This document shows, one piece after another, positions 4,838 to 9,400 of a DNA stretch of 14,207 bases (within the stretch, counting starts at the first letter, position 1; each line of letters begins with the position of its first letter). The notes beneath the pieces were generated by a model. The model had not been told where the DNA came from. It saw only the letters and a list, made by a program, of their open reading frames with translations, and made no database searches. Source of the stretch: a virus (lineage: Duplodnaviria > Heunggongvirae > Uroviricota > Caudoviricetes); the IMG/VR virus record IMGVR_UViG_3300042869_000717, positions 1 through 14,207 of that record. One strand, 5' to 3'. Made by a program: the position numbers and the translations under genes.

Positions 4838-4960
4838 ATGGGGAATATTGTTAGACTTACTGAAGGTGATTTGATTAATATTTTAATTGGAGGGGATATT
4901 CGTATACCTTCCAGTCCGGACTCACTTCGTTCGATGGAATCCCATCCCCTTTTTTTTTAG
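4838..4960 (+). pseudogene. Gene fragment (MGNIVRLTEGDLINIL...) running into dispersed repeat copy B
   Basis: Starts with a VRLTExDL-type N-terminus typical of small phage proteins; after ~15 codons the frame enters the repeat and stops at 4958-4960 (40 aa). Confidence 0.4.
4868..4958 (+). repeat. Dispersed repeat copy B (core 4911-4958)
   Basis: GATTTGATTAATATT...TATACCTTCCAGTCCGGACTCACTTCGTTCGATGGAATCCCATCCCC-T9. Confidence 0.9.
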
Positions 4961-4963
4961 AAT

Positions 4964-5446
4964 CTAATTAGGTGATTTAAGACCTATGATGTTTTGATAT
5001 TTTGGGAATAAGGTATCGTATTGGATTAGTATCTCATTAAGATTCTTGATATTCATAAATTCATTTTTTCCCGGGAGTTTTAGGTTGGACTCTATTGTAA
5101 AGATTGAACATACTGATTTAAGTTGTTTTTCGAAATCCACCGCTCCTTTTGCTTGTAATGTGTTTCCTCTTAGAACTTCGATTATTTCTATCTTATGGTG
5201 GTCGGTCCATCTTTTTTCTGAGAATCTTCCGGTTACTGAGTTTTTGGTATAACCAATTTTAATCATGTCTATACCATCCACTTTCATATGAACAACATAT
5301 ACGATGTGTTTCCCGAAACAAGTGTCAATTCTATTATAAAGGTAATCCGTGATTTTTGGATATTCGGTTATAAGGTTAGTGATAGTTTTAATTTTATCAT
5401 CTATCCCCTCCGTTTTCGAGTTCTCGTATTGTTCATATAAATTCAT
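4964..5446 (-). CDS. GIY-YIG superfamily / T5orf172-like protein (160 aa)
   Basis: VYVV...MIKIGYTKNSVTGRF pattern, later FEKQLK and GKNEF motifs, resembling T5orf172/MUG113-type domains. Confidence 0.6.
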   Translation of the reverse strand: MNLYEQYENSKTEGIDDKIKTITNLITEYPKITDYLYNRIDTCFGKHIVYVVHMKVDGIDMIKIGYTKNSVTGRFSEKRWTDHHKIEIIEVLRGNTLQAKGAVDFEKQLKSVCSIFTIESNLKLPGKNEFMNIKNLNEILIQYDTLFPKYQNIIGLKSPN

Positions 5447-5494: not shown

Positions 5495-5540
5495 CCAGTT
5501 CGGACTCACTTCGTTCGATGGAATCCCAACCCTTTTTTTT
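5495..5540 (+). repeat. Dispersed repeat copy C
   Basis: CCAGTTCGGACTCACTTCGTTCGATGGAATCCCAACCC-T8. Confidence 0.9.
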
Positions 5541-5548
5541 ATTATATA

Positions 5549-5580
5549 TTTGGTGGAATAAAAAATTTATTATATCTTTG
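5549..5580 (+). promoter_or_regulatory. Bacteroidota sigma-A promoter
   Basis: TTTG (5549-5552), N20, TATCTTTG (5573-5580). Confidence 0.75.
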
Positions 5581-5598
5581 CTTTCTAAATAAAAAATT

Positions 5599-6015
5599 AT
5601 GGAAAAAGAATTTATACCTTACGAACAAGCATTAGCTTTAAAAGAATTAGGATTTGATGAACCTTGTTTAGGATATTATGTAGGTAAAGATAGAGAGGTT
5701 TATATATCAAATGAAACTATATCTGCTCCTTTTCAATTTAGATTAGAATCTAAAACAACATTTGTAGCACCACTTTACCAACAAGCATTTAGATGGTTTA
5801 GAGAGAAGTATAATTTAGATAGTTGGATTACTAAAGAAAACAAATATCAACAACCTTATTGTTGGTATATCCAAGATAATATCACTGAATATAATAGTGA
5901 TTTTAGAATAGGCGGATTAATATGGGATACTTTTTTTCAAACTTACGAAGAAGCAGAACTTGAATGTTTGGTCAAGTTGATAGAAATTGTTAAGAAGCAA
6001 AACTTAAAAAATTAA
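5599..6015 (+). CDS. Hypothetical phage protein (138 aa), 'EFIPYEQALALKELGFDEPC' family
   Basis: ORF track; promoter upstream; APLYQQAFRWFREKY and TYEEAELECL..LIEIVK motifs that I recognise from Bacteroidota phage hypotheticals. Confidence 0.85.
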   Translation: MEKEFIPYEQALALKELGFDEPCLGYYVGKDREVYISNETISAPFQFRLESKTTFVAPLYQQAFRWFREKYNLDSWITKENKYQQPYCWYIQDNITEYNSDFRIGGLIWDTFFQTYEEAELECLVKLIEIVKKQNLKN

Positions 6016-6651: not shown

Positions 6652-6929
6652 TGGAAAAATTGGTTCATGAATATCTTAATTCTATTGTTGGTGATAACCC
6701 CACCTTATCGGTATCGAAAGAGAGTAACCATTTTGAGAGGGCGTTTAAGATGTTTAGTTATTATTATATTGTGAATGGAGTTAAGGTTGGTTCGAGACCA
6801 CATAGTGTTAGTAAAATATCTATGAAGTCTGAGTTATACAATAGTATAAGAAAACTATTTGGATTAAATCATGTGGATACTTCACAATATTTTAATAATT
6901 GGTTAAATAATATCCCTGCTGATGAGTAA
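6651..6929 (+). CDS. Hypothetical phage protein (92 aa), related to the small 'LFGL...W' family
   Basis: ORF track; translationally coupled; C-terminal ELYNSIRKLFGL...FNNWL resembles 12990-13301 and 11207-11497. Confidence 0.8.
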   Translation: MEKLVHEYLNSIVGDNPTLSVSKESNHFERAFKMFSYYYIVNGVKVGSRPHSVSKISMKSELYNSIRKLFGLNHVDTSQYFNNWLNNIPADE

Positions 6930-6943
6930 TTCGTATAGTGCTC

Positions 6944-6990
6944 TTCGTCCGGTTTCTCACTTCGTTCGAGGGAATCCCATTCCTTTTTTT
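6944..6990 (+). repeat. Dispersed repeat copy D
   Basis: TTCGTCCGGTTTCTCACTTCGTTCGAGGGAATCCCATTCC-T7. Confidence 0.85.
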
Positions 6991-6999
6991 CATTATATA

Positions 7000-7031
7000 T
7001 TTGGTGATTTGAATTCTTTGTTTTATATTTG
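7000..7031 (+). promoter_or_regulatory. Bacteroidota sigma-A promoter for the TnpB-like gene
   Basis: TTTG (7000-7003), N20, TATATTTG (7024-7031); flanks share ATTATATATTTGGTG and TTTGCTTTCTAAATAAA with the promoter at 5541-5598. Confidence 0.75.
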
Positions 7032-7050
7032 CTTTCTAAATAAATTATAT

Positions 7051-8253
7051 ATGAATCATTTTTTGGTTGAAAGAAAAAAGGGTCCATCTTATGTTGGAGT
7101 ATCAGTTGAGTATAGGATATACCCGGATGATAAACAAAAGAGATGGTTATTTGATATTGGTAATAAATTAAGAGGGGGATATAATCTTTTGGTTAGTGAA
7201 TTTATTGATGGGAAAGATTTTAAGGACTTTCCTGCTCCGAACTTAAAGAGTAAATCTCTTTTCTCTAATTATCTTTCAACGATTAATTGGTTTGATAATG
7301 TTCCATCAATATTTAGGGAATATGTTTCTGAATCTTTGGTCACATCAATTAAAAATTTCAGAAAAAAACCAAAATCAAGAAAACCTTCGTATAAGAAAAA
7401 AACGAATATATTGAAATTAACGACTAATTCAAATAGTATTAGTCGTGGAAGTTTAAGTTTGGATTGGGATAATAATGAAATTAGGTTTGCTCCTACTTTA
7501 CTTAAAAAAGTTGGGATAAATCCAATTATAAAATGTAAGTTTCATAAACAATTCAAAGGGTCTACACCAAAGTTAATGTCAATCCATAGGAAGTCTGATG
7601 GTAATTGGTATTTATCTTTAACATTGGATTTAAAGGATACTGAAATTGTTAAGATTAATAGTTCGGGTAAATCATTGGGAATTGATGTAGGTATTAAAGA
7701 TATGGCAATTACATCCGAAGGACTTAAATATCAGGTACCAATTGAGAGGATTAAAAAATTGGAAGATAAGATTTCAATTATTCAAAAGAGTATATCTCGT
7801 AAGAACAGATTAAACAAGGGTAAACCTAAATCCAAAAATTATTGGAGAGTAATTGAGAAGAAGGGTAGATTACAGAATGAATTAAATAATATTAGAAAAG
7901 AATATCACAGATATGTTGTTGGTGTTTTAACTAAAGGTAAGTTTTCTAAAATACAAGTTGAGGATATTCGTTTGTCATTTATGTTACAGAATAAACATAT
8001 GGCTAAATCCACTGCAAGAATCGGGATTCGTTCATTTGTCGATTATTTGGGAAGTGTTTGTAATTCAAAAGGAATTGAATTTAATAGGATTGACCCCCGT
8101 AATACAAGTAAGACTTGTTCTAACTGTGGGGATATAAATACTGAGTTAAAGTTATCCCAAAGGGAATGGACCTGTAAGTCTTGTGAGGAACACCACGATA
8201 GAGATATAAACGCAGCAAAAAATATCAGAGAAAGTTTGTTAGTTAGAGAATAA
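7051..8253 (+). CDS. tnpB: CRISPR-adjacent TnpB/Cas12f-like RNA-guided endonuclease (400 aa)
   Basis: N-terminal YRIYPDDKQK (IS605 OrfB-type), RuvC-I LGIDVG (D212), RuvC-II IQVEDI (E304), Zn finger C356/C359/C375/C378 (TSKTCSNCG...WTCKSC), RuvC-III HDRDINAAKNI (D385). Start set at ATG 7051 because the ORF-track extension 6922-7050 covers a repeat and the promoter. Confidence 0.93.
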   Translation: MNHFLVERKKGPSYVGVSVEYRIYPDDKQKRWLFDIGNKLRGGYNLLVSEFIDGKDFKDFPAPNLKSKSLFSNYLSTINWFDNVPSIFREYVSESLVTSIKNFRKKPKSRKPSYKKKTNILKLTTNSNSISRGSLSLDWDNNEIRFAPTLLKKVGINPIIKCKFHKQFKGSTPKLMSIHRKSDGNWYLSLTLDLKDTEIVKINSSGKSLGIDVGIKDMAITSEGLKYQVPIERIKKLEDKISIIQKSISRKNRLNKGKPKSKNYWRVIEKKGRLQNELNNIRKEYHRYVVGVLTKGKFSKIQVEDIRLSFMLQNKHMAKSTARIGIRSFVDYLGSVCNSKGIEFNRIDPRNTSKTCSNCGDINTELKLSQREWTCKSCEEHHDRDINAAKNIRESLLVRE

Positions 8254-8266
8254 TTACTTATCTTTG
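8235..8266 (+). promoter_or_regulatory. Bacteroidota sigma-A promoter driving the ncRNA/CRISPR transcript
   Basis: TTTG (8235-8238, in the last tnpB codons), N20, TATCTTTG (8259-8266); no ORF downstream. Confidence 0.75.
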
Positions 8267-8272
8267 TATCAT

Positions 8273-8469
8273 AATAAAAAAGTTCTTAAACATATTGGTA
8301 ACTCGCGTGTGTGTAACACGTTAAAAGGTTAAAACACTGTATGCAGATATAACCCGGGTAAAAGAACACGGTCAACGTGTGATTGCCGGAACGGTTAGGC
8401 GGCTAGGGGTCTCAAAACCTCATTATCCGAGAACGGATAGACTATCACAATTTCATTTGAAAAGCCATT
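8273..8469 (+). ncRNA. Candidate omegaRNA/tracrRNA-like scaffold
   Basis: Promoter upstream; hairpins CGTGT/ACACG (8306-8320), ACACG/CGTGT (8366-8380), GGGGT/ACCTC (8406-8421), TATCCG-agaa-CGGATA (8424-8439); anti-repeat GACTATC-acaa-TTTCA (8440-8455) complementary to the repeat segment TGAAAG(A/G)TAGTC. Confidence 0.6.
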
Positions 8470-8751
8470 ATTGGGATGTGTCTCGATTTTAAAGGTAGTC
8501 ACAACGAGGACACCGATATAAACCTCGTTAATAGGGTTGGGAATCATCACAATTTGAAAGGTAGTTACAACATAAAATCCCCAATTGAATAACATTTTGA
8601 GTTGGGAATCATCACAATTTGAAAGGTAGTCGCAACCGCTGTAAGTTAGCCTCAACGAAATTCAAAGTTGGGAATCATCACAATTTGAAAGATAGTCACA
8701 ACATAACATTTTAACTCTAACAGGGGAGCAAGTTGGGAATCATTACAATTT
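8470..8751 (+). CRISPR. CRISPR array: 5 repeats (36 nt; first diverged, last truncated), 4 spacers
   Basis: Repeats 8470-8505 (diverged 5' half), 8536-8571, 8601-8636, 8667-8702, 8732-8751 (partial); consensus GTTGGGAATCATCACAATTTGAAAGGTAGTCACAAC; spacers 30, 29, 30, 29 nt (8506-8535, 8572-8600, 8637-8666, 8703-8731). Confidence 0.95.
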
Positions 8752-8791
8752 AAACACAAAAAAAAAATGTTACCAATATGTTTTTAAACAT

Positions 8792-8824
8792 ACCCCATTT
8801 CTTTAATTAGATTTGGGGTTTTTT
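8792..8824 (+). terminator. Putative terminator of the array transcript
   Basis: ACCCCA...TGGGGT imperfect stem followed by a T-run. Confidence 0.45.
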
Positions 8825-8879
8825 ATTTGACATAACCATAAATTAGAATTATACTTTTATTCCATAAGGTATATTCATT

Positions 8880-9288: not shown

Positions 9289-9357
9289 CTCACTTCGTCC
9301 GGTCACTCACTTCGTCCGGTCACTCACTTCGTTCGATGGAATCCCAACCCTTTTTTT
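9289..9357 (+). repeat. Dispersed repeat copy E, with a 17-bp internal tandem duplication
   Basis: (CTCACTTCGTCCGGTCA)x2 + CTCACTTCGTTCGATGGAATCCCAACCC-T7, starting 1 nt after the 9287 stop. Confidence 0.9.
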
Positions 9358-9386
9358 GGTTATGTGGAATCTTTGTTATATCTTTG
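9355..9386 (+). promoter_or_regulatory. Bacteroidota sigma-A promoter
   Basis: TTTG (9355-9358), N20, TATCTTTG (9379-9386). Confidence 0.75.
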
Positions 9387-9400
9387 TAAAAAAGTAGTAT

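What the first reader, a model, noticed from the sequence alone, without database searches (positions are those of the whole stretch)
8440..8535. Anti-repeat pairs in cis with the diverged first repeat: possible omegaRNA-to-tracrRNA intermediate
Seen: 8440-8455 GACTATC-acaa-TTTCA is the reverse complement of the repeat's TGAAAGATAGTC with a 4-nt bulge. The match is perfect to repeat 8667-8702 and near-perfect, with wobble pairs, to the others. The first repeat (8470-8505) keeps the pairing 3' half (AAAGGTAGTCACAAC) but has diverged in its 5' half. The last repeat keeps only the 5' half. Inference: scaffold + first repeat + spacer 1 forms a natural single guide, while downstream crRNAs could pair with the same anti-repeat in trans, as in Cas12f repeat:anti-repeat duplexes.
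Basis: partly seen in the sequence, partly recalled or inferred. Interest (0 to 1): 0.8.

Follow-up and report, generated by a model that had tools for sequence, protein, structure and literature searches.

The report
Anti-repeat of a phage TnpB-CRISPR guide scaffold
The 16-base segment is most likely a real anti-repeat: the 3' tail of a structured guide-scaffold RNA that lets a 400-residue phage TnpB-type nuclease read a small CRISPR array, a variant of the recently described transposon-to-CRISPR "TranC" kind rather than a new kind of system.

Summary
8440-8455 pairs with the 3' half of the 36-nt repeats as 7 + 5 bp around a 4-nt bulge. Repeat 1 has diverged only in its 5' part, and repeat 5 keeps only its 5' part.

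In this window alone the match is not beyond chance: 2.7% of random 18-mers pair as well. Comparison with relatives makes it real. In 12 related phage loci (33-85% protein identity) the bases directly 3' of a covarying AGAA-loop hairpin always complement the local repeat in the same register. The last 4-5 nt (ACAAC) and the spacer stay free. Two repeat classes have fully compensating anti-repeats.

Scaffold and array look like one transcript. No terminator lies between them, and a covarying 15-21 bp helix joins the scaffold 5' end to the array's 3' flank.

Pairing in cis with repeat 1 is possible but not privileged here. In three lineages of relatives the first unit is reduced to a 31-32 nt sgRNA-like hairpin plus spacer. 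Yet the anti-repeats keep extra complementarity that only the full downstream repeats can use.

The repeats are Cas13b (type VI-B)-like, so "omegaRNA relic" is only one possible history.

This scan found the same module earlier in another genome. Verdict: a new variant of a known kind (TranC, Cas12f-like tracr:crRNA).

The parts
7051..8253 (+). 400-aa TnpB-type RuvC nuclease gene. The ORF opens at 6922, but its first 43 codons read through an intergenic repeat.
   Evidence: Pfam Cas12f1-like_TNB 72.8 bits and OrfB_IS605. NCBIfam guided_TnpB 184.5 bits, above its cutoff of 100; Cas12f2 and C2c8 models far below theirs. D212/E304/D385 invariant in 28 relatives. All homologues are 397-400 aa and start at M44. 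The N-terminal 43 aa match other intergenic sites.
8259..8266 (+). Bacteroidota-type -7 promoter box (TAnnTTTG) just after the stop codon
   Evidence: Read directly. The same box sits at the same place in all related loci. Function inferred.
8282..8439 (+). Structured scaffold RNA (tracr/omega-like)
   Evidence: RNAalifold on 12 loci: 30 pairs, 18 with compensatory changes; G.U pairs fit only the + strand. A covariance model finds it next to a 33%-identical nuclease in L009 (51.6 bits, E 1e-11).
8282..8303 (+). 5' arm of the long-range closing helix (perfect core 8288-8302)
   Evidence: 15/15 complementary.
8378..8387 (+). Second scaffold site complementary to repeat nt 25-34, including the CACA tail; unexplained
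   Evidence: -15.2 kcal/mol, 10 bp including 2 G.U. It does not covary where the repeat classes differ.
8424..8439 (+). Conserved 6-bp hairpin with AGAA loop that abuts the anti-repeat
   Evidence: Found in all 12 loci with 7 different stems. All six pairs covary or are invariant (columns 175-190).
8440..8457 (+). Anti-repeat (the finding): 8440-8446 and 8451-8455 pair with repeat nt 25-31 and 20-24
8470..8505 (+). Repeat 1: 5' 21 nt diverged (8 changes), 3' 15 nt intact
8506..8535 (+). Spacer 1 (30 nt). With the last 3 nt of repeat 1 it forms a 7-bp hairpin of its own.
8536..8702 (+). Repeats 2-4 (8536-8571, 8601-8636, 8667-8702) with spacers 2 and 3
8703..8731 (+). Spacer 4
8732..8767 (+). 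Terminal half-repeat (5' 20 nt kept) running into an A-run
   Evidence: The same pattern is seen in relatives.
8768..8790 (+). 3' arm of the closing helix (perfect core 8769-8783)
8793..8830 (+). Terminator-like hairpin (C-rich and G-rich arms) followed by a U-run
   Evidence: Read directly. Clearer equivalents exist in relatives. The simple scan did not call it.

Best explanation
8440-8457 is the anti-repeat at the 3' end of a roughly 175-nt structured scaffold RNA. The scaffold is made from its own promoter just downstream of a phage TnpB-type nuclease gene. It is co-transcribed with a five-repeat CRISPR array whose repeats are of the Cas13b (type VI-B) kind.

The anti-repeat stacks on the AGAA-loop hairpin and base-pairs with nt 20-31 of a repeat. 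The last five repeat bases and the following spacer are left single-stranded as the guide. This is the 5'-handle geometry of TnpB omegaRNA and of Cas12f tracr:crRNA.

One scaffold and several repeats lie on one precursor, so the anti-repeat can pair with any repeat. Repeat 1 forms first during transcription and would give an omegaRNA-like single guide with spacer 1. Pairing with repeats 2-4, within the molecule or between molecules, followed by trimming would give split tracr:crRNA guides.

Shown: the complementarity, its covariation, its fixed position and register, the scaffold structure and the closing helix. Inferred: the transcription start, co-transcription, processing, which repeat is used, and DNA cleavage.
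For: (1) Position and register. In 11 loci the 18 nt after the hairpin form the duplex with the cognate consensus repeat. It starts at anti-repeat nt 1 and repeat nt 31, at -9.9 to -18.2 kcal/mol, z -2.3 to -8.0 against shuffles. In 8 of 10 loci no other scaffold window pairs as well.
(2) Covariation. The first three pairs of helix 1 show changes on both sides across the loci; at two of them the window's class and the other class of its own clade differ on both strands. Pairs 4, 6 and 7 toggle through wobbles. Cross-class duplexes reach only -4 to -9 kcal/mol.
(3) Close relatives (80-85% protein identity) share the scaffold up to 8439 but carry a different anti-repeat together with a different repeat. 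The two travel as one module.
(4) The scaffold is a real RNA on this strand.
(5) One transcript. No + strand terminator was found between scaffold and array. A 15-21 bp helix joins the scaffold 5' end to the array's 3' flank in all 9 complete loci, at -19 to -27 kcal/mol, with compensatory changes and one G.U.
(6) The decay of the array ends fits 5'-handle use. Every spacer has an intact repeat 3' half upstream of it, while the last repeat has lost its 3' half.
(7) The nuclease keeps its RuvC triad.
Against: In this window the duplex is the weakest of the family and is not significant on its own. A non-covarying scaffold site, 8378-8387, pairs more strongly with the same repeat bases. The number of independent anti-repeat variants is small, about five. 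No RNA data could be obtained, so ends, processing and loading are unknown. No protospacer was found for any spacer, so activity and TAM are untested.
Confidence: 0.78

Rival explanations
1. Dedicated natural single guide. Scaffold + repeat 1 + spacer 1 is the main or a privileged guide, an omegaRNA retained from the transposon ancestor. The rest of the array is secondary.
For: The isolated fold pairs the anti-repeat with unit 1 in 9 of 10 loci. Repeat 1 keeps exactly the pairing half. In L006/L177, L175/L189 and L009 the first unit is only 31-32 nt from anti-repeat start to ACAAC, an sgRNA-like hairpin. This occurs in three lineages, including the most distant member. Spacer 1 is conserved 28/30 between L006 and L177 while all later spacers differ.
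Against: The whole-transcript fold of this window prefers repeat 2. Anti-repeats keep a second helix that has no partner in the truncated first units. In L188 unit 1 has largely lost pairing, and in L189 spacer 1 is only 17 nt. Five loci have an ordinary full first repeat. The truncated units carry the local Cas13b-type repeat's own last 11-12 nt, so they derive from array repeats, not from an unrelated omegaRNA end.
Confidence: 0.3
2. Trans-only tracrRNA. The anti-repeat serves only repeats 2-4, and repeat 1 with spacer 1 is a decaying array end without function.
For: Degenerate terminal repeats are usual in arrays (general knowledge). L188 and L189 show decay of unit 1. The anti-repeat matches consensus repeats better than it matches unit 1.
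Against: The decay is one-sided: 0 of 15 changes in the pairing half against 8 of 21 in the rest. The same 31-32 nt compact unit recurs in distant lineages.
Confidence: 0.3
3. The array works for the host's Cas13b, as a viral mini-array or a decoy. The complementary segment then only regulates or masks it.
For: The repeat 3' half occurs in a roughly 20-repeat array next to cas13b in Sphingobacterium hungaricum (NF038190, 810 bits) and in a Chitinophagaceae array. Viral mini-arrays with host repeats are known (PMC11656645).
Against: The anti-repeat covaries with the repeat and always accompanies the nuclease and scaffold. The last spacer lacks the full 3' repeat that Cas13b crRNAs need (from memory of Cas13b crRNA layout), whereas each spacer has the upstream half-repeat. 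The window's own repeat was not found in 401 sampled Bacteroidota genomes.
Confidence: 0.08
4. Chance complementarity or a relic of a direct repeat copy: 8444-8453 equals repeat nt 11-20 in direct orientation.
For:: 2.7% of random windows pair as well, and a stronger site exists in the scaffold.
Against: The same position, register and compensating changes are seen in 12 loci. The direct match is absent in relatives.
Confidence: 0.04

Closest known systems
TranC, transposon-CRISPR intermediates (Jin et al., Cell 2025;188:6283, known here only through PMC13565253 and preprint 10.64898/2026.03.27.714800; LaTranC structures 9jfo/9jfq)
   Same: A TnpB-sized nuclease beside a small CRISPR array without cas1/cas2. 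The guide is split into a scaffold (tracr) and repeat-derived crRNAs, with the idea that single and split guides can both be used. A phage-borne example (CauTranC9) is reported.
   Different: Sequence relation to LaTranC is limited to the C-terminal RuvC/zinc region (E 4e-19 over residues 303-436). Clade membership could not be tested. Features I did not find mentioned in the two citing papers I could search: scaffold and array contiguous on one transcript closed by a 15-21 bp helix, Cas13b-type repeats, and first units reduced to a hairpin.
Type V-F Cas12f (Cas14) tracrRNA:crRNA
   Same: The anti-repeat pairs with the 3' part of the repeat, the guide follows the repeat, and the repeat ends in a CAAC-type tail (from memory of the Un1Cas12f1 guide).
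   Different: The protein scores as TnpB, not Cas12f (NF049972 44.8 bits against a cutoff of 450). It has no enlarged N-terminal lobe at 400 aa. The tracr is not a separate gene.
IS200/IS605 TnpB omegaRNA (ISDra2, 8h1j/8exa)
   Same: Protein family (NF040570 184.5 bits). The scaffold is followed directly by the guide. The compact first units of relatives look like an omegaRNA terminal hairpin plus guide.
   Different: No TnpA or transposon ends, and a single copy in the 96.7-kb contig. The scaffold starts after the stop codon with its own promoter instead of overlapping the gene. Several guides are separated by repeats.
Natural single guides of Cas9: tracr-L (10.1101/2020.05.21.102756) and phage vsgRNAs (10.64898/2026.06.01.729453)
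   Same: Naturally fused tracr-repeat-guide RNAs exist beside, or instead of, split guides.
   Different: These belong to type II systems, have other roles (autoregulation, anti-CRISPR) and are unrelated RNAs.
Viral CRISPR mini-arrays with host-type repeats (PMC11656645)
   Same: A small phage array whose repeats resemble a host CRISPR type.
   Different: Here the phage brings its own effector and a matching anti-repeat of a different CRISPR type.

Membership tests
TranC (transposon-CRISPR intermediate) | Nuclease is TnpB-like rather than a member of an established Cas12 subtype | tested here: met
   guided_TnpB 184.5 bits (cutoff 100). The Cas12f2, C2c8 and IS607 models score far below their cutoffs. 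400 aa. The nearest non-family hits are IS200/IS605 TnpBs at about 30% identity.
TranC (transposon-CRISPR intermediate) | Stable association with a CRISPR array, not with transposon ends or TnpA | tested here: met
   An array lies downstream in all 13 family loci with enough sequence. The element is single-copy in the contig. No Cas1 in the contig.
TranC (transposon-CRISPR intermediate) | Guide functionally split into tracrRNA and crRNA joined by repeat:anti-repeat pairing | tested here: inconclusive
   Pairing and covariation are shown in silico.
TranC (transposon-CRISPR intermediate) | Placement in one of the published TranC clades | not testable with these tools
   The Cell paper and the preprint's sequence tables are not held. 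Only LaTranC is available for comparison, and it is distant.
Type V-F Cas12f | Match to the Cas12f family model and an enlarged REC/WED N-terminal half | tested here: not met
   NF049972 44.8 bits against a cutoff of 450. PDB Cas12f hits reach only E 1e-13 or weaker, over the C-terminal half.
IS200/IS605 TnpB-omegaRNA transposon | TnpA partner or IS ends, multiple copies, omegaRNA overlapping the gene's 3' end with one guide set by the flank | tested here: not met
   Single copy, own promoter after the stop codon, and 4 spacers between repeats.
Type VI-B (Cas13b) array | 36-nt GTTG...CAAC repeats with about 30-nt spacers adjacent to cas13b | tested here: inconclusive
   The repeat type is met: the 19-nt 3' half is shared with a cas13b-linked array. 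No cas13b lies beside the array in the window, whose ORFs beyond the nuclease are all under 340 aa. The Cas13b family search of the contig could not be run.

The most novel reading that the evidence does not exclude
One precursor RNA, closed by a panhandle helix, carries a single TnpB scaffold and a Cas13b-type array. The anti-repeat picks one of several repeats within the molecule. In three lineages the first unit has become, or has remained, an sgRNA-like hairpin. Single-guide and split-guide modes would then coexist in one transcript. Because the anti-repeat reads type VI-B repeats, the phage DNA nuclease might also be programmable by host Cas13b array transcripts.
Probability: 0.12. Interest if true: 0.85.

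Novelty: new variant of a known kind. Interest (0 to 1): 0.55.

Why it matters
This family gives a natural comparative series for how a TnpB scaffold is coupled to a CRISPR array. The scaffold stays the same, the anti-repeat is swapped together with the repeat, and first units range from a full repeat to an sgRNA-like hairpin. That makes the proposed 'RNA splitting' step in the origin of type V CRISPR directly testable in one small (about 1.8 kb) module. It also raises the reverse route, fusion after capture of a foreign Cas13b-type array. In practice, the mapped anti-repeat, handle and hairpin give the design of a single guide for a 400-aa nuclease.

Tried and rejected
- Profile-driven locus searches in metagenome and viral collections returned only generic TnpBs at about 30% identity, because the chosen peptide patterns were too general. 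One of those loci (L009) proved useful later, through the covariance model.
- A scaffold DNA pattern scan of IMG/VR found only the contig already known.
- Rfam found no family in the window. In particular there was no RAGATH-18, although the best PDB sequence hit, 8iaz, is an IS607 TnpB guided by RAGATH-18-derived RNA.
- No named phage carries the family.
- The array gave no protospacer in 50,697 phage records.
- The window's own repeat was not found in 401 sampled Bacteroidota genomes.
- The Cas13b family search of the contig failed on a library-name error.
- I looked for a scaffold complement of the free ACAAC tail. The exact complement is absent. The invariant GUGUGU loop could pair only with (C/U)ACA, and it shows no variation to test.
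- I ran no structure prediction and no complex prediction. They would not bear on the RNA question.

Full report
CONTEXT. The window is the first 14.2 kb of a 96.7-kb IMG/VR viral contig that CheckV rates about 32% complete, so it comes from a large phage. Gene starts carry Bacteroidota-type TAnnTTTG boxes (read directly).

The ORF 6922-8253 encodes a TnpB-type nuclease. It matches Pfam Cas12f1-like_TNB and OrfB_IS605. It scores 184.5 bits on NCBIfam guided_TnpB (cutoff 100), while the Cas12f2, C2c8 and IS607 models stay far below their cutoffs. All homologues are 397-400 aa and begin at the ORF's M44. The first 43 codons match other intergenic sites of the contig. The gene is therefore 7051-8253. 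D212, E304 and D385 of the RuvC triad are invariant in 28 relatives. The contig holds one copy of the gene and one of the downstream RNA region, and no Cas1.

THE OBSERVATION.
- 8440-8446 complements repeat nt 25-31 and 8451-8455 complements nt 20-24, with 8447-8450 bulged.
- The match is perfect to repeat 4. One wobble appears against each of repeats 1, 2 and 3.
- Repeat 1 has 8 changes in its first 21 nt and none in its last 15 (Fisher p 0.011).
- Repeat 5 keeps only nt 1-20.

Three qualifications apply.
- Change 21 of repeat 1 removes the only C-G pair of the second helix.
- The duplex energy (-11.0 kcal/mol) is modest. It gives z -2.7 against shuffled anti-repeats, and 2.7% of all 18-mers in the window do as well.
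- The scaffold holds a stronger complement, 8378-8387, to repeat nt 25-34 (-15.2).

On this window alone the finding would not stand.

COMPARATIVE TEST. A protein search found a tight family. About 16 proteins lie at 80-98% identity and about 20 at 41-53%; beyond that come generic TnpBs near 30%. I fetched the DNA downstream of the gene for twelve other distinct family loci. A covariance model of the scaffold then found one more, L009, beside a nuclease only 33% identical (51.6 bits, E 1e-11).

Every locus has the same order: promoter box after the stop codon, a structured region of about 160-180 nt, then a 36-nt-repeat array. RNAalifold on 12 scaffolds gives 30 pairs, 18 of them with compensatory changes. 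Several G.U pairs fit only the + strand.

The last scaffold element is a 6-bp hairpin with an AGAA loop (AGUA in one locus), found with seven different stems. In the window it is 8424-8439, so the finding's segment begins at the very next base.

In 11 loci with a usable repeat, the 18 nt after that hairpin pair with the cognate consensus repeat at -9.9 to -18.2 kcal/mol (z -2.3 to -8.0). The duplex always starts at anti-repeat nt 1 and at repeat nt 31. The final ACAAC stays unpaired. In 8 of 10 loci no other scaffold window pairs as well.

There are two repeat classes. The window and the 41-53% tier have repeats ending in the TAGTY-ACAAC type, with anti-repeats starting GACTA. The four closest relatives of the window have repeats ending in TAACC-ACAAC, with anti-repeats starting GGTTA. 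Two adjacent pairs are changed on both strands between these classes. A third pair changes on both sides in L009, and three more toggle through wobbles. Cross-class duplexes reach only -4 to -9 kcal/mol.

The positions of bulges and of the second helix differ between loci, but complementarity is kept each time. The layouts are 7+5, 5+7, 6+6, 7+7, 6+7, or 13 continuous bp.

The close relatives share the window's scaffold almost base for base up to 8439 and differ from 8440 onward. Anti-repeat and array are therefore exchanged together as one module.

ONE TRANSCRIPT. No + strand terminator was found between scaffold and array. The perfect 15-nt inverted repeat 8288-8302 / 8769-8783 is conserved as a 15-21 bp helix between the first bases of the scaffold and the flank just after the array. 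It is present in all nine loci with complete arrays, at -19 to -27 kcal/mol. Compensatory changes occur in four lineages, with one G.U and one A.A. The helix also appears in the minimum-energy fold of 8282-8792. A terminator-like hairpin with a U-run follows at 8793-8830. The simplest reading is a single precursor, scaffold-array, closed by a panhandle. Terminal inverted repeats at the DNA level cannot be strictly excluded.

CIS OR TRANS. Folded with only unit 1 and spacer 1, the anti-repeat pairs with unit 1 in 9 of 10 loci. In the window P is about 0.9, and the hairpin and duplex stack without a gap. Folded as the whole precursor, the window's anti-repeat pairs with repeat 2 (P 0.83-0.96) and not with repeat 1. 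The four repeats differ by only about 3 kcal/mol. Thermodynamics therefore does not single out repeat 1; only the order of transcription would.

Relatives are more telling. In L006/L177, L175/L189 and L009 the first unit consists of the anti-repeat, a 9-15 nt loop, and exactly the last 11-12 nt of the local repeat, followed by a spacer. The stretch from anti-repeat start to ACAAC is 31-32 nt. This is the layout of an engineered single guide or of an omegaRNA end. It occurs in three lineages of the protein tree, including the most divergent one. L188 has a similar unit that has partly lost pairing, and L189's first spacer is only 17 nt.

In all six loci with a truncated or diverged first unit, the anti-repeat keeps a second helix that has no partner in unit 1 and pairs only with the full downstream repeats. 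Selection therefore acts on pairing with downstream repeats. The one-sided preservation and the recurrent compact form argue that unit 1 is also used. I rate dual use as the most likely state, and exclusive use of either kind as less likely.

The decay of the array ends fits 5'-handle use. Every spacer has an intact repeat 3' half upstream of it, while the last repeat has lost its 3' half.

Spacer turnover also differs between loci. L182 and L183 encode identical nucleases but have different first spacers. L006 and L177 share spacer 1 (28/30) and none of the later spacers.

ORIGIN OF THE REPEATS. The 19-nt repeat 3' half occurs in a roughly 20-repeat array (period 66) next to a gene scoring 810 bits on the Cas13b model in Sphingobacterium hungaricum. 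It also occurs in a Chitinophagaceae array. The phage repeats are therefore of the type VI-B kind. The window's exact repeat was not found in 401 sampled Bacteroidota genomes.

This weakens the simple story that the array grew from duplications of an omegaRNA end. A TnpB scaffold may instead have adapted its 3' strand to captured repeats, and the compact first units may be secondary fusions. Both histories remain open.

COMPARISON WITH KNOWN SYSTEMS. The system works like Cas12f tracr:crRNA and like the TranC systems. TranC are TnpB-like nucleases with CRISPR arrays whose omegaRNA is functionally split (Jin et al. 2025, as cited in PMC13565253 and in preprint 10.64898/2026.03.27.714800, which also reports a Caudoviricetes TranC). 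Sequence relation to the solved LaTranC is confined to the C-terminal RuvC/zinc region. Clade membership could not be tested because the paper and the sequence tables are not held. Natural single guides are known for Cas9 (tracr-L; phage vsgRNAs).

An earlier follow-up of this scan described the same module in another genome and reached the TranC and Cas13b-repeat reading. My results agree with it independently. They add the anti-repeat covariation, the hairpin anchor, the compact first units and the closing helix.

VERDICT. The finding is a new variant of a known kind, of moderate interest.

Noticed in passing
window 8282-8303 with 8768-8790; L006, L175, L177, L189, L169, L181, L184, L188: A 15-21 bp long-range helix joins the very 5' end of the scaffold to the flank just after the array. 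It is conserved with compensatory changes in all nine complete loci. It may be a panhandle closing the scaffold-array precursor or an RNase III site; DNA-level inverted repeats are not excluded.
   Followed up: partly
window 8378-8387: This scaffold segment pairs with repeat nt 25-34, including the CACA tail that the anti-repeat leaves free. It is stronger than the anti-repeat here (-15.2 kcal/mol) and keeps 8-9 of 10 pairs in close relatives, without covariation. It could be a competing fold, a second contact or chance.
   Followed up: partly
window 8309-8314 (loop of the first scaffold helix): The GUGUGU loop is invariant in all 12 scaffolds. It could pair with the (C/U)ACA of the invariant repeat tail, like the pseudoknot contact recalled from Cas12f guides. 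There is no variation, so it cannot be tested by covariation.
   Followed up: no
window 8470-8767; L191 3177-4533 and 4641-7994; L190 7000-8000: The phage repeats share their 19-nt 3' half, their 36-nt length and their roughly 30-nt spacers with arrays beside cas13b in Sphingobacterium hungaricum and in a Chitinophagaceae genome. The repeats are of the type VI-B kind, next to a type V-like nuclease.
   Followed up: yes
window 8503-8529: Spacer 1, together with the last 3 nt of repeat 1, forms a 7-bp hairpin of its own. This is unusual for a working guide and may be chance.
   Followed up: no
window 8444-8453: A 10-nt direct match to repeat nt 11-20 overlaps the anti-repeat bulge. It is absent in relatives and may be a recombination scar from the swap of the anti-repeat-array module.
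   Followed up: partly
L182 3226-3255 versus L183 1606-1635; L006 4425-4454 versus L177 3425-3454: Loci with identical nuclease proteins carry different first spacers (L182 and L183). Loci with a truncated first unit share spacer 1 and differ in all later spacers (L006 and L177). This hints at where the arrays turn over.
   Followed up: no
window 6922-7050, 5495-5608, 9295-9390, 4917-5015: The apparent N-terminal 43 residues of the nuclease ORF are a translated copy of an intergenic repeat. The same repeat occurs at three other gene boundaries of the contig.
   Followed up: partly
L177 1-333: A Gad2-family (PF26128) gene lies about 1.7 kb upstream of the nuclease in one related phage contig.
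   Followed up: no
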